A DNA stretch of 64,000 nucleotides. Origin: Amphiscolops sp. MND2022. Lineage: Eukaryota. A program made the translations under genes and the position numbers. Below, piece after piece: positions 9,696-53,622 of the stretch (the stretch's first letter is position 1; each line of letters opens with the position of its first letter). The notes beneath the pieces were generated by a model. That model was not told where the DNA came from. It worked only from the letters and a program-made list of their open reading frames with translations, and did no database searches. Location of the stretch: positions 26,786,001 through 26,850,000 of the forward strand of contig OZ076409.1 in the NCBI GenBank assembly GCA_964187785.1. The letters are read 5' to 3'.

Positions 9696-11365
9696 TGTCG
9701 CATCCACCAAGATGCGATGGTTCCGTAGTGCAGCAGTGAAAAGGAACTCCTGAAGAGACTCAACAATAAAACATTTCAAACCTTTTAAAACTCATTTCAA
9801 TGGTATTTTCACATCGTCATGTAAATTATTTGTTTGCTTATATCGGTGAAGTTCTCTCTGGACTACTCCTTAAGTCCATAAATGATGCTTAACTTCTTTA
9901 AATCTTCTTCATAAACAACACATGTGCATAAAAATCACATAAGCATGATCAATCTACGATTTTTGATGTCACATTATGCGTCATCGTGCTACAATTAGGA
10001 TTGTGAATATACGGTGTTAAACGCTTTTCAAATATCAAAGATGAGTCATTGTACGTAAAATGGTTGTTTGAATATGCGTTATTATGCATCAAATGATTTT
10101 TCTGTATGCGTCATTGTACGTTTGAGTATACATTAAGATACGTTTTAAATTACTAGAGTATGCGGTAACATACCTTTTTATCAATTGTAACATGCATCAC
10201 TATACGGTACTACTAGTGCTGTATATGCATTAACATACGTTTATTGAAATATCATACGTATCGAATTGTGCCGTATATGCATTACTATCCGGATGTGAGG
10301 AAGATGCTCACGTGCGTTGTACGTCTTTGTGCGGTTCCAGGTCCACCGCATATGCGGGATTATGCGTTTTTCAGCAAAAGGTGTAGTTTTGAACGTCATG
10401 CAATTATACATCATTAGATAGCACTAGAGGTGTTTAATATACCATTTTACAGTATTTCTCTAGGGTCTTACAACCGATTAAACAAACGTATGTCATTATG
10501 GGAATGATATAAATAGAATTACGTGATTTGACGTTATCCTATTTTCGTGTTTTCCAGGACTACATGATACTTGTAAAAATGACTGTCATTCTTTTATATT
10601 TTGAAAAGGGGATTTCCTAAATGCAAGACACAATTGAAATAACCTCTCCAAAGTGCAGTTGTATCAATTTCTCCAGGCTCTTGCTAATACTATCAACATT
10701 TTCATTGCTTTCTCCAAGATTGGATTTTCCGTGCCGAGAACATAATTCAAATTCTTCCCCAGCAAACATAACTTGTTTTCTACTGAGTGAAATGGGAAAT
10801 AAGAGGAGTCGAAGATCAAGGAGATTAGCAACCCCATCTCCTGAGAGAGAAACGAGCGAAACTAGAGTTGACTCTCCAGGAACAGGTAATATAACTTTAA
10901 CTAATTCTAATCTAAATGTTCAAGAAAGTTTAGGTCGATTGAACTCGGAAAACCAACTAAGAGAACCCAGTCAGATTAGTGATGAGATACAAGTTTGGAC
11001 TCAGATTGTTGAGCGGAAAAATACTGAAAGAATAGAGAAAATGAGAGAAGAAATGGACAATAAACTAGAAGCAATTTTGAAGGAGATAAAACACAATAAG
11101 GGTGCTTCAATGACGACAAACCCAAGGTCTGATATAAATGAGATACAAGAACCACAACCATCGGGATCCAGGATAGATCCGCCTATAGGAGTTCACGCAT
11201 CTAATAGAGAAAATTCAGATTCTGAAAACGACGATTATCCTCTTAAAGCTTCTAAAACGAAGGATCCCAAACATCCTACTAAACCTTTGTTCCGAAGTGA
11301 ATCGGATATAGACATAAATATATATTCTGACGAAGAATCAGAAGCAGAAATAGAGGATTATCACA
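9696..11365 (+). repeat. 5' LTR (1670 bp)
   Basis: Runs TGTCGCATCC...GATTATCACA. Differs from 24821-26492 by roughly 11 substitutions and one 2-bp indel (counted by eye). TATAAA at 10508. Confidence 0.97.
9970..10300. promoter_or_regulatory. U3 array of bipartite YATGCG-N4-YRTRCG motifs with 32-33-bp phasing (repeated in the 3' LTR at ~25095-25430)
   Basis: Motif starts at 9975, 10008, 10040, 10073, 10105, then 10127, 10159, 10191, 10224. The regulatory role is inferred. Confidence 0.6.
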
Positions 11366-11383
11366 TGGTGACAGGAGCCAACC
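11366..11383 (+). other. Primer-binding site
   Basis: TGGTGACAGGAG... directly follows the LTR-terminal CA. It resembles tRNA-Leu-type PBSs; the identity of the tRNA is uncertain. Confidence 0.75.
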
Positions 11384-12466
11384 GACAGCTCCATAGACAA
11401 AGCTCACAGAAGCTAAACGACACATTAGGATCCCGCGCAGACCAAAACTCGTCAAATATGACACCGAAGCCTCTCGATCCAGTAAATCAGATTGCATTAG
11501 CAATCGAAAAATTGGCAAACAAAAATTCTCCACAGTCATTATTTCATCCTAAAAACACACTCACCTTCAATGGGAAAAATGAGAAAAATGAGAAATTCGA
11601 ATACTTTGAAGACTTATTCCACACAACACTTCGAATGCAACCAAACCTAACAGAGGAAATGAAAATCAACCATTTTCACGCACATCTAAGAGGTTTGGCT
11701 CTCAAAACATTCAAAAACATACAAAGAACCCCAAATACAATCTTAGATGATATTCTAAAGGTCTTCCGCAGAAAGTACGTCAAACCAGAGTCTAGCGCAT
11801 CTGCCAAGCATCGATTCAACAGACTCTCATTTGACCCAGAGAACCAAAAACTCCCGGATTTCCTGGAAGAACTCCAAGAAAGTGCCGATAAAGCGTTTGG
11901 GGACAACGCCCATCAAATGATAGAGAATCTACTCTACGCAAAAATGCCCCCACATCTCAAAAAGTCCATCAACCAAGCCTACCTCGAAAATGGAACATAC
12001 GATCAGATAGTTAAACATCTCGAAAGAGAGATGGAACTTAACCGTCTCGAAGCAGACGAACCCCTAGTTAAAACCCAAATGACCGCTACTAAAAAAGAAC
12101 AAAACACTGAGAAAACTAACAAAAAACCGAACGAAAAAACCAAAAAACAAACGCCTAAAACAGTACTGACAAAACACTCAAAAATAACCAATGCCGTTGT
12201 TGCAAAGAGGCAGGACACATGATGGCCGATTGCCCCAAACTAGCAAAACGACGAAAACTTGAAGAAGACCCGGATGCGGCAAAGTGTGAAAACTGCAACA
12301 CACCAGGTCACGAGGAAGAAAATTGCTACTTTGGCGCCAACATGGAAAATCGCTCACCTAAGTGGAATCTCACTGAAGCCCAAAAGAAAGTTATTGAAGA
12401 ATACAAACAAGCTCGAAAACCGATAAAACCAAAAATCGAACGCGCACAACAATCCACTTCGAAGGA

Positions 12467-12473
12467 TTTAAAC
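12467..12473 (+). other. -1 ribosomal frameshift slippery heptamer (T TTA AAC)
   Basis: The gag frame ends GAT TTA AAC TAG. The -1 frame TTT AAA CTA GAA TTG is the pol frame of ORF 12479-14236. Confidence 0.85.
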
Positions 12474-15400
12474 TAGAATTGCCACGCCTTTGCAAAAAAC
12501 CACTACAAAAATTAGGCCCTGCAGATGTCTGGCAGCATCAGCCGAGCCCAAAACCTACAAAAATCATAAACAATAAAAATGATTCAACAACACAAGAAAC
12601 TCAACCTGAAGATATATATGAACTCTTACATGACGCACCAGACAACTATTTTACACAACAACCAACTTGTCCCACAACTGACTTAACCCCAGAATCCCCA
12701 CAATCACCAAAAAATTATGTCCTAATTAAAACTTCTGGCAATGATGAAAAACAACCTCTTCTCAATGAAGACCTCACCAAACACATACAATTTCACAAGG
12801 AACGAAATTTGTCATATCTTCCGATCTCAACCTCCTTGACATTAAAACGAAAACGCCATATGTACTATATCCCAATGGACTTCGAAAAGCTTACACTTGA
12901 TGGTCTTATTGATACCGGAGCCCTTACAAGTGCGATCTCCGAACAAGATCTTAATAAAATAAAGTTGTTAGCAAATGAAGCACTTAAAGAAACTGGTCCC
13001 CCACCAAACTTCCAAATCATGGTGGCCAATGGACAACTAGAAGTTCCCATTGGTACGGTACTACTGGAATTCGAAGTGGCTGATTTCATGCTAAAAGAAA
13101 ATTTCATCATCATGAAAAATCTACCGAACCCACTGATAGGATTGTGCTTCCTCCGCAGAAACAATGCAATTTTTGATGTCAACCAAAGCATCTTAACATT
13201 TCCCTATCTGTCAATGCAACTTCAACCCGATACCCAAACAGCAATACGCCAAGCAACACCATTATTTGCCGAAAACACCTATACCTTACAACCAGGCGAA
13301 GCCCTTGCAATAGCAAGCAGAATGCCTCACCTAATGGACCATAATGCCACTGGCATAGTTACCCCATCACAACAATACGAAAATCATGATAGCATTTTCA
13401 TTACTGCATCACTCAGCACTGTTAACAACAATGCTATCGGTTATCAAATTATCAACTTTTCAGAATTACCCCATACAATCACAATGGATACCCATTTAGC
13501 AGATTTTAAGATACTAACCCCAGAGCAAATCAAGCATATACAACCAGTTGATCCAGCGTTACTATCGTTCATGATACAATACGAGGAAACAACTGAAGTC
13601 CACATAAATGAACTCCTTAAAGTACCACAACAACATTCAGACCAAGAAACATACTGGTTCCCTACATCTGAAGAACGAGGCGACCCTACAACATACACCC
13701 CAATTCAGCAACGTATATATAATGAACTTCTCGAACTCGAAGAACTCGAGAAACTAAACCCACATGATAGTGAAACCTCCAGAACAGCATTTCTCTCACA
13801 CTTTGATTGGTCTGACACAACACTCAGCTCAGATGAACGCAAAGCAATTGAAGAAATCCTCATTGAGTTTCACGATATTTTTGCCAGACATCGTTTTGAT
13901 ATTGGCATAAATCGTGAATTCAAAGTAAAACTCACACCCAACGATGACAGACCTGCTTATAGCCAAAGTCTACCGACTCCAATTAACCTCAAAGATGATA
14001 TCACTGTGGAACTCGCACTTCTACACAAGTATGGCATCATAACAACTCTACCCTTCTCAAAATACGCAAGCCCAATCTTTGCACAACGCAAACCTAACGG
14101 GCGACTCAGACTTCTAGTCGACCTACGAAAAATCAACAACTTAATCACAGAAGATTACGCCAACAACAACCACCCGGTAAGCACATTATCGGATGCAGCC
14201 CAACATATGGCGGGAAAAAACTTTTCTGTAAACTAGACTGCTCCCAGGCTTACCACTGCCTCCAAATGGCAGATTATCAGTCCATACAGATGCTCGCTTT
14301 TAACTTTGCAAGCAGAACATTCGCATACCGTAGGCTTGCCCAGGGTCTCAGCAGATCCCTTTCAGCATTTTCGAGTTTTATGAGAGACTACCTAGACAAA
14401 GCGATTAAAGCAGACCAATGTGCCCAATATGTCGATGACATAGGCATAGCAGCCAACGACACCAAACAGTTGTGTCTTAACATCAAAACAGTGTTTGAAT
14501 GCATCCGCAATGCAGGATTAAAACTCTCAATGTCTAAATGTCATTTCGGAGTCAAACAAGTCGACTTTCTGGGACGTACAATCACCCCAGATGGAGTCGC
14601 CCCACAATCCGACAAGGTTAAAGACTTCCTCTCAAAGCTTCGTTTTCCTAAATCAAAAAAGGCATTACAAAGGTATATCGGATTTTTGAATTATTACCGA
14701 AACTACATTCCTCGCCTTTCAGAACGTCTAACCCCGTTTTTTAAACTCCTCAAAGAAACTTCCAAGTTCTATGTACCAACAAATTTAGTCGACGACTTCA
14801 CAAGTTTAAACAAACTTCTCGAAAATTCCTGCCAACTGGCACTGAAACAACCACTAAAACACAAACAGCTCATAGTCATGTCTGATGCTAGTTTTACTGC
14901 TGCGGGCTATGCAATCATGACAGAAGATGACCCGAACCAGAAGTTACAATCCAAACGAAAAACCTATGCACCCATAGCGTTTGGATCCAAAACATTCAAT
15001 CCCACACAAACAAAGATGTCAATCTACGCAAAAGAATTCCTTTCCATATACTTCGCATTTGTGGAATTTGGACACCTCATGTGGGGCAACACCTTCCCGG
15101 TAATCGTGTTTATCGACAATCGCTCGGTAACCCGATTCTTTCAAACAAAAATGATTCCTCCAGCACTCTGGAACGCCTGCGATTACGTATTGCAATATAA
15201 TTTTGTCATTGCCCACGTTGCTGGTTCCTTGAATACTGCAGCAGATTTTTTATCCAGAACAGAAGTAAACCCAAAAGAAAAGCTAGAAATGACTATCCGC
15301 AATGACATCTACACAAAGGCAATAGAAGTCCACATCCAATCATCAGGTATCGTAGAAGAAGAACAAATCTACATTCTCCCCGATGATGAAATAGACGAGA

Positions 15401-17334
15401 ATCAACTATGGGAAGAAAAACAAAATGTACGTACACAAGCTCGAAATGAAACCCACAACGAACCAGAAAATGACATCTCTGAACTACAACATTTCCACAA
15501 ACCCACATCGGGTTTGATCTCGGTATCATCAGGATACTTCAGAGACAATGCAAGGATTCGCCTCGAACAAAATAATGACATTGTTCTCAGAAATCTCAGA
15601 GCGAAAATAGAGGGCGAACCCTTTGACGAAAACGATTTAGCATCTGACTATCGATACCACCACTATCTGCAAAACATAACACGGATTGAGATAAAAAAAG
15701 AAGTCCTTACCAGGAAATACTATACGGATACTGGAACAGTATCACATTACCAAATTCTCCTTCCGATTCAACTTGTAGACGAATTCCTCCAAGCCCTACA
15801 TGGTCATAATTCAAACCACCCAGGTATCACGAAAATGATACAAGAAGCAAGACAAAAATATTACTATCCTTGTATGGCAAAGTACATAAAAAAGTGGGTC
15901 AGTAACTGTCAAACCTGCATCCAAACCAAACGTATTAACAATGACCTCCTAAGGACAGAACTCCTTAATTGTCCAGAATGGGATCTAGGTCCGGAAGACA
16001 TCCTACAGATGGATATCCTACCAAACCTCCCTCCGAGCGGAGGATATGATCATATTATCACAGCCATAGATGTCTTCTCGAGGTATTTGTTCGCATATCC
16101 CGTAACTCGTATCACTGCAACAGCAGTATCAAGAGTCGTCATGGATATATTATGCAAACACACCTACCTACCAACGACAATAATCACGGATTTAGGAACC
16201 CAGTTCAACGCACAGGTGACTCAAGAAATTGCAGCAGTACTAGGAATTTAACTTAAACGTGCCACAATGAAACATGCCCAAACAATAGGACTCCTCGAGA
16301 GAACCCATGCCTCAGTGAAAACACATCTGAAAGCTGCAACAGGCGAATTCAGAAATAATTGGCATAAATATCTCCCATTGGCAGTCCTCAACCACAATAC
16401 AACATACCATGCATCACTCGGCTGTGAACCTTCACGAGTTTTCCATGGTAGAATACCACATAATATCCTCGACTACAAACTCGGATATAACCCTAACCCA
16501 CGATACCAACCACAGTCAGATGTGGCAGAAGAAATTCAAAAACGAATGAAAATCCTCTTGGATCAAACTAAGAAGAACATTATGCAATCGTATCTCAAAT
16601 ACAAGGCTTACTATGATCGAAAAGCCAAAGCAGCTCCGCTTGAAACGACGGACTATTGTTACATTCTTAACCCAAAAGCAGATACTCAAGCGACAAAAAT
16701 ACCATTCCGAGAATTCAGATGGTGTGGTCCATATAAAGTAGAAAAAGTACTCCCTAACAATAATTATATTGTCCGGAGACTTGGAACTAACAAAACGCAA
16801 TTACTACACAGGATCCGTTTACGGAAATTCACCCCGCAAGCCCCATTAGCAGACATTTTCGTTCGCGAAACTGATTGGCAAAAAGATGACCAAATGCCTA
16901 TAGCAAATGATGACCTATATGCCCAATCATGGAACACAAATTTTGGGTCTAACCCGTTCGAAGATGGTCCTTCAGAATTCACACAAGACACTGAAGACGT
17001 TGAATATACTCCAATTCAAACACCTGATGATAACCGCCCTCCCTCCCCAGGATCTTCAAAAAATAAGGAGGGGAGCCCAGTGGAACAGACCACTGAACCA
17101 AATCAAGATTACGACAACCATGAAAATGAAATACCACAACACATCAATGAAGATAATCAAAATACCCAAAAAACTTAAGAAAAACCAAATAGTACACCAG
17201 TTGACGATATCCCAAAAACCCCAGAAAATTCACAAAATACCCCATTGCAAGAAGAACCCATAAATACTCGTGGCGAAAAATATAACCTACGCCCCAACCC
17301 CAACCCAAACTTTTCACACTCGTACAGATACTAA
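12467..17334 (+). pseudogene. pol: Pol polyprotein (protease, RT, RNase H, integrase), disrupted
   Basis: LIDTGA protease; RLLVDLRKIN and YVDD RT; IVMSDAS RNase H; HHCC plus D-D-E integrase; terminal YNLRP. Lesions: a frameshift in the A-run at ~14215 and in-frame TAA codons at 16249 and 17176. Confidence 0.95.
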
Positions 17335-17547
17335 AAACAAATCACTGACAAATTTTCCTTTAAACTCGAGGACTTGAAACTCATAATACTATCCTCCTTG
17401 TCAGCATTCCAAAGAAATTGCAATAAATACATACAAACGAAGATAACGTAAATCAAGTTTATAAAACGAGTTAACAGAGTCTGAAAGTTCAAAATTGCAT
17501 CAATCCTTCTTTTCTCTGGTCTTCTTGACTTTTCCCTTCCTACCTTT

Positions 17548-20500
17548 TTATACTCCGGGCTCCATCAGTGTAGCAGGAGTCACTTTAATAGGCATTAGTT
17601 TGGGAGACAGCCCAGATCCAGGTGAACTAGTGGTGCTCGACGAATGACTTACACTGGGTGTAGTAGCTTCCAGAAATATAGGCAAACCTTCACTCAGCAG
17701 CACAGACCTCTTGTAAGCCGCCTCGAATTTCTCTAACATAGATGACATCCGGACCCCACTTCCACGCAAAAAACTCCAGATGGAAAACTTCTTGTCGTTG
17801 ATTAATTCACGTCCTCGCCCAAGCAATCGGAAGATTCTTCCCACCGATTTAGAGTCTCCATACAGACTAGAGACGTTAGGCACAGTGACATAAGATAACT
17901 GCAAGCTCCTAACCACTGATTCAAAGGCATCATGGTCAAATTTTAACTCTGGAATAGAAACCTCGAATTTGGCAGGGATTGTGATCACAGGCGGTAGACA
18001 CAAGCAAGCAACACGAAATACACGTGATAGCTCAGTCCGACTCTGCATCTCATAATGAGAACCTAAGTACAAAACCCAATCACATCGGGGGACATTGTCG
18101 TTAGCTCGTAATTTAGTAACAAAGGAGCGGTACTGGCTCACTGCCTTGGTCTTGTCCCCTGCTGAAATTACACCTGTAGAGACGAAGTAACTTGTAAGAT
18201 CCTCAATAGCAATGGTATAATTTTGTTCCGAACCATCCAGAATAACAGCATGGTCAAAACAAGAAAGTCCTCGAAGCAGTGTTGACTTTAAAATATCATG
18301 GGACAACAATATACTGCAAAATGACTTGCAGAAAGCCATGGATTGTTCAACAAATCGACTAGGACGAGGCAGCCGACTGGAGGTAACGAGATAGTGGAAA
18401 TCAGGATTAAGAGCAAACTCAGCTGGAGTTTTCAGAGGTAATTCAGTGCCCGACAAATCGATCTTCAAATATGAATCCCAATTCGAATTGTCTCCAAGGA
18501 AACTGTCCGGTAGCAAGTTTTGTAACTGACTATACACAAAGACGGTGAATTGGTTGAAAATCCTGAAACCTTGATTCATTTCTCCTTGTACCTCGGCGAA
18601 CGCGAAGTTGTCTGAAACAAACTTATGAATACAGCTATACAATTTTTAGCATGAAATATAGAAGTGTGTACACTTCACTATACCGTTCAAAAACTTCAAC
18701 TATGAGGTGTTACGCGAAAATCCTAGCTATTTACTCGGTATCCCCGCAAAAAATCTCAGAAATATATACCGCAAAATGCGAGATGTTGCCATTGTGTATA
18801 CGGTAATACACAAATTTTTTGTGATTCCATTCTCACAACGTTTCAAATTTGTTTATGCGCAACCATACGGAAAAGGCTAGTTCTTATGCGCCAATATGCG
18901 TGTTTTCCGTGTCATTCAACAAGCAATTACAATAGCATTATCACAAGACAATTAAGCGTCACCAAGCGAATTAGAGAAGAATGCATATACGTAGTTCTAC
19001 GGAACTCAAACCCTCACCATTCGTTAACATACGGAACTTGGAATCTGATTATGCGGCGCTGTGCGGAACTTGGAATCTGATTATGCGGCGCTGTGCGGAA
19101 CTTGGAATCTGATTATGCGGCGCTGTGCGGAACTTGGAATCTGATTATGCGGCGCTGTGCGGAATTTGTATTCTGGTTACGCAGTATTATCCGGAATTTG
19201 AATTCTATATATGCAGTACTACGCGGAATTCGAAATACAGTCGTACGCTACTATGCGGAATTCGAACTACAGTCGTACGCTACTATGCGGAATGAAATGG
19301 AGAGTATATAAAGTTGTGCAAAATTCAGATTTGAGCTGGACGGCGTAATGAAAGACATGACATGACGTATATGCGCTGAAGTACGGAATTTAGAAACCCG
19401 AGAGTGAAACATGTAGATCCCAATATGGAATTAAAAACCACACGTATTTGGGCTACGGAACTAACTTGCGACCTTCGCGACAGAGGAAGACTTTACGAAT
19501 AGATACCAGGGTTTACAAAACAAACAAGATAGTCTTAAATACAAATCATGGAAAGCATTTGAAAAATAAGAGGGAAATAAAAGTTCACTAACAGTGATCA
19601 ATGGCACATCAGATTACGAATAAACGCGCTAAGTACGCGGTGTCCAATCGGAAACACTCATCTAGGGAAGTAGGCTATAACACAAACGAAAAGTAACCTA
19701 TTTGGAAGACGTTTTTCGGAAGTGGGTGTGAAATTTCAACACTTACTTTTCTCATGTGAAATCGGTATTCCGGCATTCGTGACACCTGTGCCAGGTGGTC
19801 CTTGATTCTGTCCCAATTAGTGGAAAAACATTCAATCAAAGCAGATGCTTCAGCCAGGTTGTACTCCAGAGTTAATATGGACTGAAAAAAGAAATTGGTC
19901 AACGACACTCATGGCTTGTTTTGTGTTAGAAACTCGGAAGTAAAACACTACCTTGTGAAGGACAGGCAGTGAATGGACCCAATCCCGATCGAGTGCAGTG
20001 CGTAATTTTAGGAGCAGGTAATCGATAATTGTTCGGAAATCGTGACGCTCAATTATTTTGGCAGTTGGGGTAGCCAAACACTTTTCAAACTCAGCAGGAC
20101 TAAAGCTGTTGACAATGCTGGGTTTCGGATCACAATTCAGTACAGAGATTAAACAACTGCTAAGCTTCTCTTCCATATCAACCAAACAAATGCAATTGGG
20201 TGGAGACTCAAATAAACTCAAGAGAGAAGATATCAAGATGAGAATTTTCTTAGGGACTAGCACGCCCCGAGGACCTGTCCCAATACAAACTCGCTGGAAA
20301 ATGTTCCCAGACCAAAAGGATAAGAAGAGGAAAGAGTGGGTCGGGGATCGTTGCAGGACTAGCGAGTAATTTTCAGAAGAAGTAATGTGGGTAATGCAAT
20401 AACTGATGAGTCCACGGAACATATATACCAGCATTCCCTGAAACATAGGCTAGTGGTCAATTTTTGATCATAGTTAGAAGGGGTGAATGTGCAAAAGATG

Positions 20501-22237
20501 AGGTTTAGTTACTATATGTAAATTGCAAAATGTAGTAAATACTTACGAAGATTCGTGAGCTCTCCCAAATGAAGGGCTGGAAATCACTGGTCGTAGAAGT
20601 ATGTTGCAAAATCTCGTCGTGAATTCCGATTAGACTAGCAAGGGGTCCTCCATGTTTCAACCCAAATTCCAAAACCCGCAATTGAGCCAACACAATCTCG
20701 ACCGGACTGGAGTCACCTTTTATGTCTGGTAGCCTGTCTTGCCCCACAAGCAACCTTCGAGGACCAAGTTGGGGTGGTATTGGGTAAGTGTCCTTAGCTG
20801 TCCTTTTTGCTTCTTGTAAAGCAATACCTTGCAACTCTACCTCTTCACGGTCATAAAGGGCCAAACCTGGTGTTTCCATCCGGATTCTATGTTCTTTTAC
20901 GAGATGGGATTCTGTCTTGTAGTGCGATATCATTTCCAAGGGTCCTCGGCTCATTAGGGATAATTCAAGTTTGCACACCCTACACCACCATTTGTAAGGG
21001 GTTTTTTCTTTGTCAATCGGCCCAGTTGCAGAAAATTTCAATACTGGGTGTTTTCTGAACATACTTTCAGTCAAGCAATACCGAGGCCTTGGTCGCTTGG
21101 CTGGTCTCAGAGGATTTTCTTCGGGATCAAATTCGGTTGTGTTCCCCCGCTCAAGGGCGCCTCGATCGGTACTAGTTGGGCAATGTGGAGAGAGTTCTGT
21201 GCTGGGTCCAGGTGGATTTTCAACGACTGAGACAGTAAGACCGGGGGACAGAACGTTTTCCCCTGACAAGAATGATTGGGGAATGCGACTCAACACGTTG
21301 GTTAAAGCTATGACCTCATTTCGAGTAATGCTGATGCTGGCATTGGTCACTGGTGGTGAGGAAGTATTGAGCTCCGCCGACAAAGATTGAGGAGCTTGGA
21401 AAATCTCGTTTGTGTCCCCCATAAGAGTAGTTTGTCCCATCGGTAAATGGTCGCTGATAAATGAGTCAATTCGTTGATCCACAGGTAAGTACTGTGAAAA
21501 TCGGGGGGAATTAGTCCGTGATGAAATAGCAGCAGCAAGACTATCCATGAGTTGAGAAGTGAATGTATCCTGTAAGGCAGAAGTGGAAGCAATAGGAGGT
21601 GTAGCGCTTTGGGTTTCGTGAGGCTGTTCGCCCGCTTCAGGATTTTCCTCAGAATTTTCAGGAAGAACACTGCATTCTTGGGTTCCGAAGGGGTTCTGTG
21701 TGTCCACAACGGCTTCTTGTTCTACTCCTTCTTGTGCAGGGCGGACAAGAGTTGGAGGTGGGATGCTGTATACGGAAGGCTCAGACTGATTAGGCGAAAC
21801 AACTTGGAGGGGAGCATAAACCTTCTCAGGAGACGGCTGAGGCGATTTCTCCACGATCGCGAGTTTACCTAAAATGATTGGTTTATAAATCCAAACAGAC
21901 AAATTGAAATTTTTGACTTAGATCTGCTGTGGAAACCTTTTTACCGGACGCGGTGATTTGAATAGAAAAAGCGGAAGTCAAACTAATTTGAGACCGGAAG
22001 TAGAAATATTTCCAAGACAAAATTCTGATCTGAGTATTCTCTTGATCGCAAAATCGGTGAATTCATAGTCCGGCCAACTATGTTATTCTTAACAAATTCG
22101 AAACTGGAAGAAATGAACCAAGACAAAAGTTCAAACTCACCTGGAGAATCAGCTGTCGGGGACTTGTATCCCCAAGATCGGGTCCTCATTCTGGAAACGA
22201 ACTCCTGGGAAAGACTCCGTCCTCTATTGTCACTCAT
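17548..22237 (-). CDS. Antisense spliced accessory gene: hAT-transposase-derived protein with a BED-like zinc finger
   Basis: Predicted exons 22237-22141, 21868-20547, 20437-19952, 19881-19747, unresolved small exon(s) at ~19675-19465, and a last exon at ~18611-17548. The first three joins are phase-compatible GT-AG introns. Motifs: KWWCRVCK...SHYKTESH, and LLRGLSCFD...AVSQYRSF...ELSRVFRVACLCL. Confidence 0.72.
19000..19290. repeat. 32-bp minisatellite inside the predicted intron of the antisense gene
   Basis: Four perfect copies of CGGAACTTGGAATCTGATTATGCGGCGCTGTG (19032-19159), with in-phase degenerate units at 19000, 19160, 19192, 19224 and 19256. Confidence 0.95.
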
Positions 22238-22559
22238 GATGCTGAATTGGAAACCCTCAGTGATCTCCAATGACCCAATTAATAATTTAATGGAATGAGG
22301 TTTGGAGGACAAACTGAATAGACTAATAAAAGGACTAGAGTAGAATTTTATAAAAGTATAAATGTGTATTAAAACTGACAAAACCAATATAGGAAGGCGT
22401 GGCGATCTAAACGAAAGGCAAAGAGCAAATGCGCTCAGAAATTGTACTGGAATTGGTAGTACGCTCTAATATGATTGGCCAATTAGAATGTCAGTCACTT
22501 CTGCCAGAGTGTCCGATTACGTAATTGGCATATTAACAACACATGTGAAAGCAAAAGTA

Positions 22560-22980
22560 AATAGACCTGCGGTAATATACAAACTTACTACATACGCTAA
22601 TACGGTGATCTGCAAAATACCAGCATTCAATGTACAGCAACATGCGAACTTTGGATTGCAATTATGCGCAATTATGCGGATTCACAAATGGACAATATAC
22701 AGCAACATGCGGACTTTAGATTGCAATCACACGCAATTATGCGGATTCACAAATGGACAATATACAGCAACATACGTTTTTCAGATTACAACTATGCGTA
22801 ACTATGCGGATTTACGGATGAACAATATGCTGCAAAATGCGGATTTGCAGTTGCAATTATACGTAAATACACAAATTTACAGATGAGCAATATGCGGCTG
22901 CACATGTACTTGTGACTTACAAACATACGGCAATATGCGGAAATATGATTGTAGTCTATGCGTCAATATGCGGAATAAAG
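22560..22980. repeat. Degenerate 32-bp repeat array with a 64-bp higher-order period, between the divergent accessory genes
   Basis: TATGCG-CAAT-TATGCG units. The block GCAATTATGCGGATTCACAAATGGACAATATACAGCAACAT is duplicated 64 bp apart. Confidence 0.8.
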
Positions 22981-23835
22981 AGAAAAAGAGCACGTGCTGG
23001 TATGCAGTATGAAAGCGAAGAAGAATTGAATGACACGTAATCATTTGAGGAATTAAAACAAACAACTTCACTCTGACGATCGAATGAGTCATGGCCAGCA
23101 CGCGGTAGCATGCGGATCCTAGTATTGATGTATAAGCAGTCTTAAGTACTTTGGAAGAAAGAGATTGTGGGACGGCGTCCGAAGCAATATACACAGAGAT
23201 GCATATTAAAATGCATTGAGTCAACCCGAATGGATAGACCTCTACCAATCTACCTCGTTGTGAGAGGCTATCACAGGTACCTATCTTAAAAGTTTGTGCC
23301 TTTTCAAAACGCGGGACATCGAATGATATACTATGTCGCGATCATGTGATCTTTAAAAAAAAACTTGGTAAAACATTTAAACATTCATGCAATATGTTCA
23401 GCCTTGATATGAGTTTCATTGACGCTTCTAAATAAAATTATATTGAGCAGTTAATTCATTCATTTTTTGTGGCATCCTAGGTGAAGATATTTGTTTACAT
23501 CATATTTAAATGTAACTGAAACAAAACTAGAAAGATCAAAAGGAAACTGCCGTTGAAAGATATGACAAACGAAGTCACACTCATTTTGTTTATTTACATA
23601 TGTGGAAGAAACCAAAACCTAACCCCTCTTTCATACGGTGACCCGCCACCTACATCCCATATAAGGTGTTGCTAGACTCACGAAATCATGACACCCAATT
23701 TTTTGGCGGGGTTCCGTCTAAATCAAGTCAAACTGAAAAGAAGATTCACCATATGGTCTTTACAATTTCATAAATCAGTCGCCTTGTAAAACTTTTGAAA
23801 ACCTGAAAAGCTAAATAGTTCTCCGCAAATCAAAA

Positions 23836-24864
23836 ATGAACAAGCTTCAATTCGACATCGATGAAGACTCACTATACTCCCCTATCTCCCCTGATGTGGT
23901 GGACATCTCGAGCGGGTCAGAAGGTGAGTTCTCCATTGCCCCCGGAGACGTGACCCAACTCAACGATAGATTCCGTATAGACACAACTGGGAGCAATTTA
24001 ATGTCAGCATTTATGGGAGCGGCAACAGCCACTTTGTACCCTGATACAGAAATGTCGCCAAGACAGGACCCAGCAACGATCGCATCTGGAACTCAGTTGG
24101 AGAGAGAACTTATGGACCTAATTGAAGTCCCTCAGAACGGACTAATGGAATCTCCAGGTTCGTTTGAAGACAGCGAGTTTGAGGAGGGGAATCTCTTCCC
24201 ATGGACCATGGGCGTTGGCCCCGAAAGAACTACAAACAACTATGGTCGTCCCGCCGCAAGGGTCCTCCCTACTCTGAGGACAAATTCCAGCGACAGTGGG
24301 ATCTTACCCCGTCCAATCCCGATCTTTCCGCCAAATTACAGGCAAGAACAAACAGGCTTTCAACAACGAACAACAAGGGAGCCAATGGAACAAGAGGTAC
24401 GAAATAATACAATCCCACAACAAAGAACAACGCGAGAAAACTTCACAGGGTTTAATTTATCCCCAATGCTGTTCCCCCTCAACATTAGTGGATTAGACAG
24501 CGGAACTCAGCCTTTGGAACAGTTGATGCAACCCACTGTTCAACTGGGGTTTCCGTTCAACACGACCCACAGCACGAACTCACTCCTAATTCCGGCCCAA
24601 GAAAGACATAGCATCCGGTTGATACCCACTGTTATGGCCAACGTCGCAGGATATTGTGAACTCTGCGGAAAATGCTATGATCAAAGCGCTCTGGAGACTC
24701 TGGGAGAGTATCTGGTTGCAACGGAGTACGAGGGTGAAACAGTCAAGGAAAGGACAATCAGATCAAGGGCATTCATCCACGGGTTCGAAGCAGCATTGTT
24801 CCTTTTTAAAAATGCGGGACTGTCGCATCCACCAAGATGCGATGGTTCCGTAGTGCAGCAGTGA
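23836..24864 (+). CDS. Accessory sense ORF (342 aa) of unknown function: acidic, disordered N-terminus and a C-terminal CxxC helical domain
   Basis: Intact ORF with ATG in an AAAAATG context. It reads through the PPT and stops 44 nt inside the 3' LTR; AATAAA follows at 24890. Confidence 0.7.
   Translation: MNKLQFDIDEDSLYSPISPDVVDISSGSEGEFSIAPGDVTQLNDRFRIDTTGSNLMSAFMGAATATLYPDTEMSPRQDPATIASGTQLERELMDLIEVPQNGLMESPGSFEDSEFEEGNLFPWTMGVGPERTTNNYGRPAARVLPTLRTNSSDSGILPRPIPIFPPNYRQEQTGFQQRTTREPMEQEVRNNTIPQQRTTRENFTGFNLSPMLFPLNISGLDSGTQPLEQLMQPTVQLGFPFNTTHSTNSLLIPAQERHSIRLIPTVMANVAGYCELCGKCYDQSALETLGEYLVATEYEGETVKERTIRSRAFIHGFEAALFLFKNAGLSHPPRCDGSVVQQ
24808..24820 (+). other. Degenerate polypurine tract
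   Basis: AAAAATGCGGGAC lies immediately before the 3' LTR TG and overlaps the coding sequence of ORF 23836-24864. Confidence 0.5.
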
Positions 24865-26492
24865 AAAGGAACTCCTGAAGAGACTCAACAATAAAACATT
24901 TCAAACCTTTTAAAACTCATTTCAATGGTATTTTCACATCGTCATGTAAATTATTTGTTTGCTTATATCGGTGAAGTTCTCTCTGAACTACTCCTTAAGT
25001 CCATAAATGATGCTTAACTTCTTTAAACCTTCTTCATAAACAACACATGTGCATAAAAATCACATAAGCATGATCAATCTACGATTTTTGATGTCACATT
25101 ATGCGTCATCGTGCTACAATTAGGATTGTGAATATACGGTGTTAAACGCTTTTCAAATATCAAAGATGAGTCATTGTACGTAAAATGGTTGTTTGAATAT
25201 GCGTTATTATGCATCAAATGATTTTTCTGTATGCGTCATTATACGTTTGAGTATACATTAAGATACGTTTTAAATTACTAGAGTATGCGGTAACATACCT
25301 TTTTATCAATTGTAACATGCATCACTATACGGTACTACTAGTGCTGTATATGCATTAACATACGTTTTTATTGAAATATCATACGGATCGAATTGTGCCG
25401 TATATGCATTACTATCCGGATGTGAGGAAGATGCTCACGTGCGTTGTACGTCTTTGTGCGGTTCCAGGTCCACCGCATATGCGGGATTATGCGTTTTTCA
25501 GCAAAAGGTGTAGTTTTGAACGTCATGCAATTATACATCATTAGATAGCACTAGAGGTGTTTAATATACCATTTTACAGTATTTCTCTAGGGTCTTACGA
25601 CCGATTAAACAAACGTATGTCATTATGGGAATGATATAAATAGAATTACGTGATTTGACGTTATCCTATTTTTGTGTTTTCCAGGACTACATGATACTTG
25701 TAAAAATGACTGTCATTCTTTTATATTTTGAAAAGGGGATTTCCTAAATGCAAGACACAATTGAAATAACCTCTCCAAAGTGCAGTTGTATCAATTTCTC
25801 CAGGCTCTTGCTAATACTATCAACATTTTCATTGCTTTCTCCAAGATTGGATTTTCCGTGCCGAGAACATAATTCAAATTCTTCCCCAGCAAACATAACT
25901 TGTTTTCTACTGAGTGAAATGGGAAATAAGAGGAGTCGAAGATCAAGGAGATTAGCAACCCCATCTCCTGAGAGAGAAACGAGCGAAACTAGAGTTGACT
26001 CTCCAGGAACAGGTAATATAACTTTAACTAATTCTAACCTAAATGTTCAAGAAAGTTTAGGTGGATTGAACTCGGAAAACCAACTAAGAGAACCCAGTCA
26101 GATTAGTGATGAGATACAAGTTTGGACTCAGATTGTTGAGCGGAAAAATACTGAAAGAATAGAGAAAATGAGAGAAGAAATGGACAATAAACTAGAAGCA
26201 ATTTTGAAGGAGATAAAACACAATAAGGGTGCTTCAATGACGACAAACCCAAGGTCTGATATAAATGAGATACAAGAACCACAACCATCGGGATCCAGGA
26301 TAGATCCGCCTATAGGAGTTCACGCATGTAATAGAGAAAATTCAGATTCTGAAAACGACGATTATCCTCTTGAAGCTTCTAAAACGAAGGATCCCAAACA
26401 TCCTACTAAACCCTTGTTCCGAAGTGAATCGGATATAGACATAAATATATATTCTGACGAAGAATCAGAAGCAGAAATAGAGGATTATCACA
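24821..26492 (+). repeat. 3' LTR (1672 bp)
   Basis: Near-identical to 9696-11365 and followed by the TSD GTAAA. Confidence 0.97.
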
Positions 26493-26500
26493 GTAAATAG
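25919..26500 (+). CDS. LTR-encoded truncated Gag N-terminus (stop codon supplied by flanking host DNA)
   Basis: Copy of the gag 5' part (ORF 25748-26500). It runs past the LTR end through the TSD to TAG at 26498-26500. Expression is unknown. Confidence 0.45.
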   Translation: MGNKRSRRSRRLATPSPERETSETRVDSPGTGNITLTNSNLNVQESLGGLNSENQLREPSQISDEIQVWTQIVERKNTERIEKMREEMDNKLEAILKEIKHNKGASMTTNPRSDINEIQEPQPSGSRIDPPIGVHACNRENSDSENDDYPLEASKTKDPKHPTKPLFRSESDIDINIYSDEESEAEIEDYHSK

Positions 26501-33724: not shown

Positions 33725-34904
33725 CATGTACAGGCAAAAGCGCCCCTGACAAAAGCGCCCTAGTCAAAACCGCCCCTGACAAAAGCGCCCCAGTCAAAAG
33801 CGCCCATTTTACACAGACAAAAGCGCCCCAGACAAAAGCGCCCCAACCAGATTCGTCTTGCGAATAATTGTAATGATTTCACACCTAATTTCTATTAACT
33901 GCACATAATTAATTGGCCGTACGCGTAGCCGGATATTACCGAGGGTGACAATTTCACACGTGTTTAAAAGCAGTCAACTTGTTAATTCAGAAGACGCTTT
34001 TCTGAGGCAAGCTGATTCATCTGTTAGGAAATTCATTGCAACTACCACCCAAATGGAAATCACCGCTCTTAAAAGCAATAAAAACCAAGACATTATGACC
34101 CACTGTGGGTATTGATACAGGAAAGCAAGGGACCTCAAAACGGTACGGAGTCATGGAGGTGTTTGAATTAAAACGGCCGGGGCCGAATTAACGTTGGCAA
34201 CGAGATCAAAAGTGTTAGTGAGCATTGCCAAGAGCCACAAACCGAAAAAGTAGAAGAGAAATTATTCCGTGCTGAACTTAAAACACGAGCAGTGTTAACC
34301 GAAGAAAAACCCAAGAGTGTTATTTTGGCAGCTCAGCGATTTCTTACCGTCGAGTCAGGACCGACCTTTTGAGATGAACTTTTGTTTTTTTGTTGTTGTT
34401 ATTGTGTCTTGTTGAAAAAAATTGACCAAAATTTCAAACTATCCCGTGCATGTCTAAAACTGTGCATGCTACAGCTCTGAGAATTTGTCACCATAAAGAG
34501 AGGTTTTTTAAATAAAAAATTCTTCTCTCCCACCCCAACCCGGAACCCTGATAACGGGGGGGGGGTGTTTCCGGGTCATCACATTGAATGAGACTTTTTC
34601 ATGAAAAATTTCCATGTTAGTTTCGAACTCGATGACTAATAGTCAACAACTAAAGTTTTGACCACTGAGCTATCCAGTCTTAATAGGATGAGTTTTGAAT
34701 TGACTTATAAAATGAGTCATTTGATTCAAACAATTTCATTACGTAATCGACATTTCAATAACGAGCATTGAACCAAGACACTTAATTAGTTCGTGAGACA
34801 AAATCAAGGCAATTAAATCCTGAGACGCATTCAATTGGGGCGCTTTTGACTTGGGCGCTTTTGACTGGGGCGCTTTTGTCTGGGGCGCTTTTGTCTAGGT
34901 AACC
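33725..34904 (+). mobile_element. Internally deleted Mutator-like (MULE) DNA transposon
   Basis: 9-bp TSD TTCAAAAAC (33716-33724 and 34905-34913). Inverted subterminal arrays of 15-bp CAAAAGCGCCCC units. Internal FLYWCH remnant. Confidence 0.8.
34053..34372 (+). pseudogene. FLYWCH zinc-finger N-terminus of a MULE transposase
   Basis: MEITALKSNKNQDIMTHCGY*YRKARDLK/GTESWRCLN*NGRGRI...SEHCQEP...AELKTRA, with stops and a frameshift. Confidence 0.7.
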
Positions 34905-36773: not shown

Positions 36774-39700
36774 TCAGTATTTTCAATATTTTACCGTCTT
36801 TCGGCGATAATTTTTACATGAACATTATACCAAAAAATTTTTCTGATTTTTCTCAATCCCATGATAGTTTTTGTTTGTAGAACTCACCAAGAAAACAAAA
36901 ATGGGAGCACTTTTCCGTTCAGTAAAATTGGAAATACATGTATTGAGATAGGAATTTCAGACTTACACTTGGTAAAACTCCCATCAATATACATTTTCCA
37001 AAAATATCCAAAATCAAATTTCATCTTTGTTTTCGAGATTTGAGTGTATCTGCAAGGCAAAATTTATCAAAAAATATTTATTGGATCACATATATTTTCT
37101 CAAAAATTAGCAATTTCAAATATTTTCTTCTCAAAATCACATGTTTCTATCTTCGGAAACAGTGATGGTTTAAATTTCGAACAAAAACCATGGTATTCAT
37201 AGCAAAAATTCAAGAATCTTTTGTTTTTACCAAATTGAACCATATCGAATAGTTTTGGAGATATGAGACTGTAAAATTAGCCTTTTTGAGCAGCCAGGTC
37301 GCATTTTTTCTTCACACAACTGTACAACAAACAACTACTGACAAGCAACTTCGAAAAGTTTGAAATTTAAAATTGAAAGTGAACCCGGAAAAAATACAAA
37401 ATTGATTGAGTCATAATCGTCAAACTTGGTTTTGATTACTCCTCAAAACTACTAATTTTGTAAAATTGAGAAATCGGGAATAACTGTATATCCATTGTGC
37501 AATTCAGCAATTTAATAAGATAGTACAAAAGGTTGAAATTTCAATATTTCACAATGATTATGCAGTTATTTCCTTAAGGACTAGATGTTATACCGACAAT
37601 ATCTGAGTCACACAGACCAATAAAGTTTGTATTACCTGTTGAGAGCCGTGATATGTTGCGCCTTGAGTTATCTCAGCGACCATATGTTTTTGTGCCAATA
37701 ACTGACAAAATTTACACGTAAAAATTCCATAAAATTCCAAAAAATTTAGCTCTTTCTACCTGTTCTAGATTCGTGCTATACATTCCTTTGGAAAAACTTT
37801 AGATCTATCCTTCCAGAAGTCTCCTAAGTAGCTCATTGATTTGTAATTTGAGCTCTATTGATATTCATACAAAACAAAGCTCTCTGAAAATAGAACCCAA
37901 GTTGCAAAAGACTCAATTTTATTGGCATTTCGACACTTTTAATTATCGGCACTTGTCAAAACGAGTTCATTTGTTTCGTTTAAATATGTATTTGAAAAAG
38001 TACAAATACAGATGCTATGAACCTCATTGCTTTGTTGTTGAAATCTGTGGAACTTACAAAATAGTTTTTGAAAAACTATTTTGTGAGTATAAATTTGAAA
38101 CATATGGCTTTGAGTATGACTTTGACTCTGATATGGAATATGACCAGGAAGTGTAAATTAGGATGCATACATTTCTTTAACCAAATGACCTTACACTGAG
38201 TTTTAATCTCAAACTTGGAAAACAGTTACCGAATAACAAGACAGAAACCTCTCAAATCGGTGCCCACGAAGAAAGCTCAATAAACGGCAAACTTTTCAAA
38301 ATTGTTAGCGATGAATTGTTTTCATAAAAAAACCGAATAATCTATGTGCCAAGAAAACCAAGTGAGGCCCTTTGAGCTCAAAAGTGTTTTTTTTTCAGCT
38401 TAAAATGTCAAAAAAAAACATAAAGGACAACCTTTTAATGAAATTGACAATGCCAAAATCTAGACAATTCCAAAAAGAACAAATGAGGAACAATTTGCCG
38501 TATTGTAGTTTTGTATATCATGTAAAAAAGAAAACTCAAAAGGAGGACTTTTCTGCTATCATTAGTACTCCGTAGATCTTAGGCTGACAATTGTAAAAGG
38601 TGTACGTTTCCGAATGAAAATTGTCATCACAAAATACTTGCCATTGTAAGAGTCGGGCACTTTTTCTTACAAAAAGCAGCGAATGGCAACGCATCAATTT
38701 GACGAACTTGAGATTTCTGCCAAGGAGATTTTTAAGGAATTTAGACTTTAAGGAAAACTTCCTGTTCGTGGTATACAGCCAGGTGTATTTTTCTGAACGA
38801 GCTCGAAACAATTGAAACTATAGTTTGTAGTAGGATTGCGATTCAATGGTTTTGAAATGTGAGAAAGACTATTGAAGGAGCCTAACTATTTGAAGAAGAA
38901 GCTATTCTCTTTGTAAACAAACACAATCTTTCTCAAAATCAAAACTAGAAAAAAGTTTGGTTTCACCTTAGATCAGTCGGACATTCCAAAAACTATTTTT
39001 TTCTGGAGAAGACATTTTTTACCGAACGAAAACTACCTCAACGAACCAGCAGTCTTTCAAAGAAGTAACAATGAGTTCGAAAACAGAATTCAGGAAAAAT
39101 ATAAAAGTGTATGCAGATATCATTAAAACTGAAAAGAACTAATCAGAAACAGCTAAGGTCGGTAGACGGCCTAAAGATCAAGATACACAGAAGATATTTT
39201 AAATCTACCCAGGTCCATTTTTGTGAGCGTTCAGAAAAATTTCACAGAGGCCAATAACATTCCAATTCTAGAAAGGATTCATCTTGACCGAAACATCGAA
39301 AAAAAACAAAAATAACTGAAAGAATAAAAAATCCGGTAAAAATTTGATTTTCGAAAAAAATATGTAGCGCATTGCCGAAACACTCAGGCTTGCAGAACGC
39401 TTTTTGTTTCCTAAAGACATCAGCAAACTAAATAAGGAAACTCATCGGTGATATGAAATATATTTTCCCGAAAAGTCGCACAGTACTGAAAAAACTTCAA
39501 AGAAGTGTCCCTTGGACAAAATCCAGCTTTTCAAATGGAACAAGTTTGACCAGCGGAAGATTCGAAACATTGAACTTCTCTTTCCCAGATCCTGTTTCCC
39601 GCCTCTCAGTATTTTCAATATTTTACCGTCTTTCGGCGATAATTTTTACATGAACATTTTACCAAAAAATTTTTCTGATTTTTCTCAATCCCATGATAGT

Positions 39701-50624: not shown

Positions 50625-51484
50625 CGAGGCAATACGATGCTGCGATGTATGTGAAACTCCACTAACCGAACACTTAAGTATCAATTTCGCCAAAACTGAT
50701 TTTTTTTAATCATTAAGGTTTCAATTTATCCTTTTTCGTGAAGTCAGTATACTTCTTGTTGTCCAGGCAAATCAAGGTTCCGCCGACCGTAGTTTTTTTT
50801 GCAAGACGATGAAATTGTATGTAATTTTTTTCGATGAGTAACCTTTCAGAGGCTGAACTTCGAGGATCCCAATTCTTGTGTTTATATTCACTTCAATGTA
50901 TCAAAACCAAACCCTGACCCTAACAGATTACATTTATGAAAGCGCCTATGAGCATACCCACACCCCCTCTCTCGCGACCCCTACCCTAGTGCTACTCTCC
51001 TTGTTGTTTTGTTAGGCGCGATAACTAGCCCCAAACAATCCAAACTTATCCTCGAACATTCAAATTAGGAACAGTAGAACTCGTCCTTTGCGCATTGCCA
51101 AAAGGAAAAGATGCAATAAATTATTTTAGTAGGTTATTAGGAATGAATTGTTTGATTTGCTGTGGGACTGGGCGGCCATGAGAACGCACCATGAAGACCA
51201 GGAATATGAGGATGTCCTCAGTCTACTAGACTATATGAGCGATTAATAAGGTTTGTTAATTTATAGTCGCTTTAACTGATGTCTAAATTGCCTACTTTAA
51301 TTTTTTTATTTGGATGTTACACTAGTTCATCATTATTGTTGATAAATATCCAGCGGAGCTATGGACGCTTTGATTAGCCCACCCTCATCTAACCCATAAT
51401 ATATGTGTAACCTTGATACCACGATTCAGCCAACGACAAGACCGCTACGTTTATTCGGGAGAATAAAAGTCCAGAAGGGAAGAG

Positions 51485-53495: not shown

Positions 53496-53622
53496 GTTGC
53501 GCATCTGGGTGGGCTTTGCTTTGCTTTCTTTTACTGGTTACGTTTTACAACATTTGTTTCGAGTTCTGGATTCCAACTTGAACATATATTCGTAGAGTTG
53601 GATATTATACAAGGATTTCATT

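What the first reader, a model, noticed from the sequence alone, without database searches (positions are those of the whole stretch)
10792..11400. Gag starts inside the LTR with a myristoylation-plus-polybasic N-terminus and reads through the PBS
Seen: ~190 gag codons lie within the LTR, and the frame crosses the CA terminus and PBS (TAT CAC ATG GTG ACA GGA) without a break. The start MGNKRSRRSRR fits M-G-x-x-x-S followed by a basic patch. Known: this bipartite signal targets retroviral matrix proteins and Src to membranes, and gag normally begins after the PBS. Inference: an env-less element whose Gag may assemble or bud at membranes, raising the possibility of cell-to-cell transfer.
Basis: partly seen in the sequence, partly recalled or inferred. 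Interest (0 to 1): 0.72.

Follow-up and report, generated by a model that had tools for sequence, protein, structure and literature searches.

The report
Capsid gene starting inside terminal repeat
In a large group of jumping genes the first third of the capsid gene sits inside the repeated end of the element, and the positively charged start of the protein is kept across the group while the glycine needed for a fatty membrane anchor is found in only one branch, so spread between cells is not supported.

Summary
Observation confirmed. A 16.8-kb Ty3/gypsy element (LTRs 9696-11365 and 24821-26492, 99.2% identical, TSD GTAAA) starts gag at ATG 10792. 191 codons lie in the LTR and the frame reads through the CA end and the PBS. 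The layout is clade-wide: 22 of 22 LTR-only ORFs of relatives diverge at the same point, and sister families show the same junction after codons 114-223. ATG 10621 is not supported. The myristoylation reading is only partly supported. In this family Gly2 is kept (95 of 97), but position 6 is Asn in 52 and Ser in 42. In sister families 0 of 105 basic N-termini have Gly2. The LTR-coded part models as a disordered basic tail plus one long helix (borderline trimer prediction), not as a matrix fold. That resembles LINE-1 ORF1p, where charge matters and myristate does not. No transmembrane env or fusogen ORF was found, so cell-to-cell transfer is unsupported. Precedent is Ty1; this scan noted smaller overlaps in microsporidian gypsy elements before. 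Verdict: an extreme, clade-wide variant of a known layout. A myristoyl anchor gained by this one family stays possible (about 0.27).

The parts
9696..11365 (+). 5' LTR, 1670 bp, TG...CA; last 574 nt are gag-coding
10508..10513 (+). TATAAA, candidate promoter box; start site of transcription unknown
   Evidence: function inferred
10621..10791 (+). in-frame 57-codon upstream extension from a weak-context ATG; not conserved, probably 5' UTR
10792..10848 (+). Gag start and conserved 19-residue N-terminal motif: Gly2, six K/R, Ser9, T/S-P and S-P sites
10969..11106 (+). LTR-coded long helix (Gag 60-105), predicted parallel trimeric coiled coil
11059..11064 (+). AATAAA inside gag codons 90-91; candidate poly(A) signal for the copy in the 3' LTR, untested
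   Evidence: inference
11366..11377 (+). primer binding site read as Gag codons; first 9 nt complementary to a tRNA-Leu 3' end listed for beetle elements; the LTR's last A plus the PBS form ATG 11365
10792..12476 (+). gag (capsid, two zinc knuckles), frameshifted near 12165 in this copy; TTTAAAC slippery site at 12467-12473 before the stop
12398..17333 (+). pol, order PR-RT-RNaseH-IN, in the -1 frame to gag; broken in this copy
17548..21917 (-). antisense accessory ORFs (17548-18645, 19850-20449, 20505-21917); the last has a BED-like C2H2 finger and an in-phase candidate intron to the middle one; no Pfam match; highest hydrophobic score 1.86 (19850-20449), just under the 1.9 cut-off
23815..24864 (+). 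sense accessory ORF (342 aa from ATG 23836) running across the weak purine tract into the 3' LTR; no Pfam match, no transmembrane segment
24821..26492 (+). 3' LTR, 1672 bp
25919..26500 (+). 3' LTR copy of the Gag N-terminal ORF (193 aa), running out of the LTR and ending in host DNA

Best explanation
An env-less Ty3/gypsy clade has the first 114-223 codons of gag inside the transcribed part of its LTR. Shown: the frame opens at ATG 10792 and crosses the LTR end and the PBS, so these are both cis-signals and codons, and relatives keep this layout. Predicted: the LTR-coded part is a disordered, strongly basic N-terminal tail, then one long helix that forms a parallel trimer, then an acidic linker to the capsid domain. 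Inferred: the tail works by charge, as a nuclear, chromatin or RNA-targeting signal probably tuned by neighbouring Ser/Thr-Pro phosphorylation in this family, as in LINE-1 ORF1p. Gly2 is a family trait and myristoylation is absent or incidental. The element replicates inside the cell. Inferred consequence: every 3' or solo LTR holds a promoter, an ATG and the tail-plus-coil module without capsid, which could act as a dominant-negative fragment or fuse to host DNA.
For: Junction: 22 of 22 LTR-only ORFs continue after the LTR with a residue that can be coded by an A-starting codon (1 of 23 rows dropped as a Pol false hit, 2 begin MV and may be broken internal copies). In sister families the residue before MVTG is Asp 105, His 9, Ala 1, with no junction found in 5 of 120. 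P0448 is an LTR-only ORF of a Pro2 family ending at the same junction. Charge kept without Gly: 3-6 K/R in residues 2-13 in all 13 representatives examined, while the Gly pattern occurs in only 3, all this family. MG starts form one clade, support 100/99. AF2: residues 1-59 low confidence and without secondary structure, helix 60-105 mostly at pLDDT 69-88. Trimer score 0.32 against best control 0.01, pLDDT 70-72, runs agree in at least 80% of contacts; the mark was reached by 21 of 30 solved pairs and 0 of 23 single chains. L1 ORF1p has a 51-residue disordered basic NTR with two S-P sites before a trimeric coil; G2R was tolerated and a strong myristoylation signal abolished activity, though that construct was poorly expressed (PMC5940361, passages).
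Against: 92 of 97 family N-termini fit the relaxed myristoylation pattern, and position 6 moves almost only between allowed residues. Gly2 and Asn3 stay fixed while residues 20-59 drift to 53% identity. The trimer pass sits exactly on the mark, used 3 copies (off calibration) and no alignment; on eukaryote proteins only 1 of 7 with no solved relative passed. The AF2 model is poor overall (mean pLDDT 42.7). S/T-P sites are absent from 7 of the 10 sister representatives. No RNA, no DNA of relatives and no host genome were available, so the start of transcription, dN/dS and expression are untested. A basic patch can also bind membranes without myristate.
Confidence: 0.6

Rival explanations
1. Family-specific gain of a myristoyl-plus-basic anchor. 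This family placed Gly2-Asn3 and Ser/Asn6 on the ancestral basic patch. Gag is myristoylated and assembles at membranes, multivalently through the trimeric coil, with Ser9 and the T/S-P sites as an electrostatic switch. Release in vesicles is possible; transfer between cells would need a further, unseen fusion step.
For: Gly2 95 of 97, Asn3 96 of 97, position 6 Ser, Asn or Thr in 95 of 97, Ser9 97 of 97. 92 of 97 fit G-{EDRKHPFYW}-x(2)-[STAGCN]-{P} (pattern from PMC1885993, passage). The window copy has Ser6. Six basic residues follow directly. Env-less LTR elements can move between cells (10.1101/2025.03.14.642691, passages).
Against: Only 43 of 97 fit MGxxxS/T; over 70% of high-confidence predicted kinetoplastid substrates have Ser at 6. 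Arg7, Arg8, Ser9, Pro15 and Ser16 are as fixed as Gly2, so Gly2 does not stand out; its first base is also the favoured +4 G. 0 of 105 sister basic N-termini have Gly2. No matrix fold. The known env-less transfer relies on a myristoylated transmembrane sORF2, and no such ORF was found among 53 ATG ORFs of 40 aa or more. A similar MG-basic start in L1 ORF1p proved to work by charge.
Confidence: 0.27
2. Capsid Gag starts at ATG 11365, made by the LTR end and the PBS. The LTR frame is a separate or optional extension, and its conserved ends reflect DNA or RNA signals rather than protein function.
For: The junction Met is nearly invariant (83 of 84) and has +4 G. Replacements in the LTR part are only slightly more conservative than neutral: mean BLOSUM 0.00 and -0.13 in the two largest bins against about -0.26 expected. 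Some sister ORFs are called from MVTG.
Against: The junction Met is forced by the LTR-end and PBS bases. Its -3 base is C. The LTR frame stays open and in phase through 367 recurrent replacement states and through indels in 81 of 83 variants (biased, since variants were found as ORFs). A basic start recurs in sister families. Purine content steps from 0.44 to 0.61 at 10792.
Confidence: 0.08
3. Translation starts at ATG 10621, giving a 57-residue, mildly hydrophobic extension that buries Gly59 and rules out myristoylation.
For: The frame is open from 10621 in both LTRs and this ATG lies downstream of the TATA box.
Against: Context is weak (-3 T, +4 C) against -3 G, +4 G at 10792. Only 12 of 134 family proteins carry upstream residues and none resembles the window extension (best cases 14 and 15 of 200 shuffles score as high); gene-caller choice of start may bias this. 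Composition is non-coding-like. Peak hydrophobicity 1.61 is below the transmembrane cut-off.
Confidence: 0.05

Closest known systems
Ty1 of Saccharomyces cerevisiae (Ty1/copia)
   Same: GAG opens inside the LTR and the PBS lies in coding sequence: 53-nt 5' UTR, PBS after nt 88-94 (PMC7969010, passages). Env-less.
   Different: The Ty1 overlap is about a dozen codons; here it is 191, and 114-223 in sisters, carrying a whole basic-tail-plus-coil module. Different superfamily. Ty1's restriction factor p22 comes from a subgenomic mRNA and holds the RNA-binding region (PMC4551931, abstract); the LTR-only fragment here is N-terminal.
LINE-1 ORF1p N-terminus (functional analogue, not a homologue)
   Same: MG-basic start, about 50-60 disordered residues with Ser/Thr-Pro sites, then a trimeric coiled coil; charge required, myristoylation signal not helpful (PMC5940361, passages).
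   Different: Non-LTR element with RRM and CTD after the coil; here a retroviral-type capsid and zinc knuckles follow. The trimer here is only predicted. Homology was not tested.
Ty3/gypsy (Metaviridae), Ty3-G as nearest solved structure
   Same: PR-RT-RH-IN order, best PDB hit Ty3-G Gag-Pol at E 1.3e-30, weak Ty3_capsid and Retrotrans_gag hits.
   Different: A deep, unnamed radiation: the nearest named protein is 27% identical over half of the Pol query. Gag starts in the LTR.
Orthoretroviral matrix (HIV-1, MLV) and Src myristoyl-basic anchors
   Same: Gly2 followed by a basic cluster.
   Different: No globular matrix fold predicted, Ser6 not fixed, no Env, Gly2 absent from sister families. 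The matrix and Src features are recalled; MLV myristoylation was seen in PMC5035971 passages.
Drosophila MDG1-group elements with sORF2/FAST fusogens
   Different: There the myristoylation motif is on a separate small transmembrane protein upstream of gag; none was found here.
Plant Retand elements
   Same: Long pol-to-3'LTR region with antisense ORFs and tandem repeats (PMC11963269, abstract; repeat array 18968-19255).
   Different: No TRP28 or other Pfam match here; unrelated lineage by inference.

Membership tests
Ty3/gypsy LTR retrotransposon | Paired TG...CA LTRs with target-site duplication | tested here: met
Ty3/gypsy LTR retrotransposon | Pol order PR-RT-RNaseH-IN and RT closest to Ty3 | tested here: met
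Ty3/gypsy LTR retrotransposon | tRNA primer binding site next to the 5' LTR | tested here: inconclusive
   TGG start at 11366; 9 of 12 nt match a listed tRNA-Leu end; host tRNAs unavailable
Ty3/gypsy LTR retrotransposon | Polypurine tract before the 3' LTR | tested here: inconclusive
   only a short A-rich run, inside an ORF
Ty1-type gag-in-LTR layout | gag ATG within the LTR and PBS within coding sequence | tested here: met
Myristoyl-plus-basic membrane anchor (retroviral MA, Src) | Gly2 conserved | tested here: met
   95 of 97 within the family; 0 of 105 in sister families
Myristoyl-plus-basic membrane anchor (retroviral MA, Src) | Ser/Thr at position 6 conserved | tested here: not met
   43 of 97 fit MGxxxS/T; 92 of 97 fit the relaxed pattern
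Myristoyl-plus-basic membrane anchor (retroviral MA, Src) | Basic cluster after Gly2 | tested here: met
   6 K/R in the first 11 residues
Myristoyl-plus-basic membrane anchor (retroviral MA, Src) | Globular helical matrix domain | tested here: not met
   disordered 1-59 and a single helix 60-105, in a low-confidence model
Myristoyl-plus-basic membrane anchor (retroviral MA, Src) | Actual myristoylation and membrane localisation | not testable with these tools
   needs labelling and imaging
Infectious env-carrying or sORF2/FAST-carrying elements | Env or small myristoylated transmembrane fusogen ORF | tested here: not met
   no Pfam match in 7 accessory ORFs; 1 of 53 ORFs above the hydrophobicity cut-off, antisense within pol and without the motif; spliced or decayed forms not excluded
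LINE-1 ORF1p-like N-terminal module (works-like only) | Basic disordered N-terminus followed by a trimeric coiled coil | tested here: inconclusive
   predicted only; borderline trimer pass

The most novel reading that the evidence does not exclude
One family of an env-less Ty3/gypsy clade turned an LTR-encoded basic tail into a true myristoyl-plus-basic anchor, independently of retroviral matrix. Its trimerising Gag assembles and buds at membranes and passes genomes between cells, and each solo LTR can donate a promoter, a start codon and a membrane-targeting trimerisation module to whatever host DNA follows.
Probability: 0.1. Interest if true: 0.8.

Novelty: new variant of a known kind. Interest (0 to 1): 0.47.

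Why it matters
The LTR here is a protein-coding unit: about 190 codons are duplicated at every insertion and must serve at once as R/U5, integration end and primer site. This forces a minus-strand strong-stop DNA of at least 574 nt, and each 3' or solo LTR leaves an open frame running into host DNA. Such frames were seen as predicted proteins in relatives; they are candidates for dominant-negative Gag fragments and for new fusion genes. The clade also offers a natural comparison of Gly2 against Pro2, Val2, Ser2 and Ala2 families on the same basic patch, which makes the question of when a Gag N-terminus becomes a membrane anchor directly testable. LTR annotation that treats LTRs as non-coding will truncate these Gags.

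Tried and rejected
No host genome is held. No sequencing run was listed, which says nothing about expression. No DNA relatives were found in viral, metagenome or prokaryote contigs, so no dN/dS was possible. No tRNA gene lies in the window. The fold search of the low-confidence Gag model gave no match at E <= 0.001. The single-sequence fold of the antisense ORF 17548-18579 was uninformative (pLDDT 35.6). Atlas searches of two antisense ORFs gave leads only, with scores 0.79-0.85. A candidate 48-nt in-frame mini-intron at 10886-10933 was considered: lowest-GC window of gag, with conserved G32, N33, L47 and G48. No precise deletion was seen in 132 family proteins, so it was not adopted. P0224 starts MG, but from an internal Met, and was not counted as a start. 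P0301 (GNKRK after a Val) is a single decayed copy and was not counted. P0460 was left out of the tree because it matched too little of the capsid. The script failed midway; its later part was replaced by the calculation. Paper searches showed no Ty3/gypsy Gag with a long LTR overlap and no myristoylated Ty3/gypsy Gag; only listings were seen for most hits and subscription journals are not covered. Search 35, on a recalled guess at the host lineage, gave nothing useful, and the host stays unidentified. The Tf1 NLS paper is not held; its title was seen in reference lists, and the N-terminal position of that NLS is recalled. PMC12992720 and PMC5408684 had no passage on myristoylation. The sequence and place look-ups among earlier findings were blank. 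bioRxiv supplements were not consulted; the sORF2 candidate table there could bear on the fusogen comparison.

Full report
Anatomy. The finding lies in a 16.8-kb LTR element at 9696-26492. Its LTRs (1670 and 1672 bp) match at 1659 of 1672 positions, run TGT...ACA and are flanked by GTAAA on both sides. Pol has the Ty3/gypsy order PR-RT-RNaseH-IN and its best solved relative is Ty3-G (E 1.3e-30). A TTTAAAC heptamer precedes the gag stop, with pol in the -1 frame. This copy is young but defective, with frameshifts near 12165 and 14215 and stops at 16251 and 17178. About 7.5 kb between pol and the 3' LTR hold antisense ORFs and one sense ORF without Pfam matches.

Observation. ATG 10792 leaves 191.3 codons inside the LTR. 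That frame has no stop, against 19 and 24 in the other frames. The last A of the LTR and the first bases of the PBS form the Met of H-M-V-T-G. The first 9 nt of the PBS complement a tRNA-Leu end listed in PMC13524379 (supplement rows); the host tRNA could not be checked.

The layout is shared. The Gag query found 2886 proteins, of which the best 120 were examined. Among all fetched proteins, 23 held the LTR part but not the capsid and continued differently after the junction. One was a Pol false hit and was dropped; in the other 22 the next residue can always be coded by an A-starting codon, as the LTR's terminal CA requires (2 of them may be broken internal copies). A profile search of 50%-identity representatives (best 150 of 1894) and a search with a sister alignment (best 120 of 2703) showed families 48-69% identical in the capsid with the same junction. 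The residue before MVTG is Asp in 105, His in 9 and Ala in 1, with no junction found in 5. In 13 representatives it falls after codons 114-223. P0448 is an LTR-only ORF of a Pro2 family that ends at this point.

Which start. ATG 10792 has G at -3 and +4; ATG 10621 has T and C. Purine content rises from 0.44 to 0.61 at 10792. Only 12 of 134 family proteins have upstream residues, and none resembles the window's 57-residue extension; the gene caller's choice of start can bias this count. In 74 diverged variants (of 83 full-length), median identity to the window is 0.89 for residues 1-19, 0.53 for 20-59, 0.67 for 60-105, 0.59 for 106-187 and 0.93 for the capsid. The frame survives 367 recurrent replacement states and indels in 81 of 83 variants, but the variants were found as ORFs, so this is biased. 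Replacements are only slightly more conservative than neutral.

Myristoylation. Of the 120 best hits, 97 carry the N-terminal motif: Gly2 in 95, Asn3 in 96, position 6 Asn in 52 and Ser in 42, Arg8 and Ser9 in 97. 43 fit MGxxxS/T and 92 fit the relaxed PROSITE pattern (pattern from PMC1885993, passage). Gly2 is no more fixed than its neighbours. Beyond the family it disappears: 105 of 120 sister proteins have a basic N-terminus, 96 with Pro2, 9 with Val2 and none with Gly2. Further single representatives have Ser, Ala or Pro at position 2. On a capsid tree the MG starts form one clade (100/99, midpoint-rooted, 31 rows). What the whole clade keeps is the charge: 3-6 K/R in residues 2-13 of all 13 representatives.

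What the LTR encodes. AF2 gives low-confidence coil for residues 1-59, one helix at 60-105 and disorder up to the capsid, in a model with mean pLDDT 42.7. Three copies of residues 54-108 reach 0.32 against a best control of 0.01, with pLDDT 70-72, runs agreeing in at least 80% of contacts and in-register parallel contacts. The mark was reached by 21 of 30 solved pairs and 0 of 23 single chains, but the score sits on the mark, three copies are off calibration, and only 1 of 7 eukaryote proteins without a solved relative passed. This is not a matrix domain. It matches the plan of LINE-1 ORF1p: an MG-basic start, a 51-residue disordered region with two S-P sites, and a trimeric coil. In that protein G2R was tolerated and a strong myristoylation signal gave a poorly expressed, inactive protein; the authors conclude that charge matters (PMC5940361, passages). 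They leave nuclear, chromatin, RNA and membrane roles open, and so must I. Tf1 Gag enters the nucleus (PMC5035971 and PMC5909446, passages); that its NLS is N-terminal is recalled.

Transfer. Env-less elements can cross cells, but the known case uses a small myristoylated transmembrane protein (10.1101/2025.03.14.642691, passages). Of 53 ATG ORFs of 40 aa or more in this element, one passes the hydrophobicity cut-off; it lies antisense inside pol and lacks the motif. An antisense accessory ORF comes close (1.86) and also lacks the motif. Nothing supports a fusion step, though spliced or decayed forms are not excluded.

Mechanism, committed. Shown: start in the LTR, read-through of the LTR end and PBS, clade-wide layout, conserved charge, Gly2 confined to one family. 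Predicted: disordered tail and trimeric coil. Inferred: charge-based nuclear, chromatin or RNA targeting with intracellular replication (0.60); a family-specific myristoyl anchor (0.27), of which budding with transfer is about 0.10; a start at 11365 (0.08); a start at 10621 (0.05). Inferred consequences: R-U5 of at least 574 nt, and a tail-plus-coil fragment from every 3' or solo LTR (here 25919-26500).

Novelty. Gag starting in the LTR with a coding PBS is known from Ty1 (53-nt UTR, PBS after nt 88-94; PMC7969010, passages). Two unchecked notes of this scan describe overlaps of tens of codons in microsporidian elements. The scale here, a whole structural module in the LTR across a large radiation, did not appear in searches, which cover open-licence papers only. 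I rate it a new variant of a known kind, interest 0.47.

Noticed in passing
window 17548-21917 (-): Antisense accessory gene, probably spliced: GTAAGT donor at 20546, CTAAC at 20477, in-phase acceptors ending at 20450 and 20438. It has a BED-like C2H2 finger (atlas lead 0.81), and there is a weak lead to hAT-derived proteins for 17548-18645 (0.84).
   Followed up: partly
window 23815-24864 (+): Sense accessory ORF whose last 14 codons lie in the start of the 3' LTR, so both LTR ends are coding; AATAAA follows shortly after its stop (9765 in the 5' LTR).
   Followed up: partly
window 10886-10933 (+): 48-nt, 21% GC stretch in gag bounded by CAG|GTAAT and TTAG, at residues conserved in an otherwise variable region; no spliced-out variant among 132 proteins.
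   Followed up: partly
window 12467-12476 (+): TTTAAAC slippery heptamer directly before the gag stop, with pol in the -1 frame.
   Followed up: no
window about 17280-17333 (+): The integrase tail ends in a YNLRP-type motif, present in 55 of 120 Pol relatives; it resembles the foamy-virus chromatin-binding motif (recalled).
   Followed up: partly
window 18968-19290 and 22628-22974: 32-bp tandem array and a degenerate repeat in the accessory region.
   Followed up: no
window 46750-58673: Tandem array of about 5-kb units with three 1.7-kb repeats that start TGTG but do not end in CA, and a broken gag-like ORF at 48485 (weak PNMA hit, E 0.042).
   Followed up: partly
window 36774-45271: Three tandem 2.83-kb units, 97-98% identical.
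   Followed up: no
window 59915-60866, 33731-34899 and 544-918/8048-8418: Inverted-repeat pairs suggesting foldback or DNA-transposon remnants.
   Followed up: no
window 62203-62739 (-): Integrase zinc-binding fragment of another LTR element.
   Followed up: no
P0356, P0367: Two sister Pol proteins carry PF00692, recalled as dUTPase.
   Followed up: no
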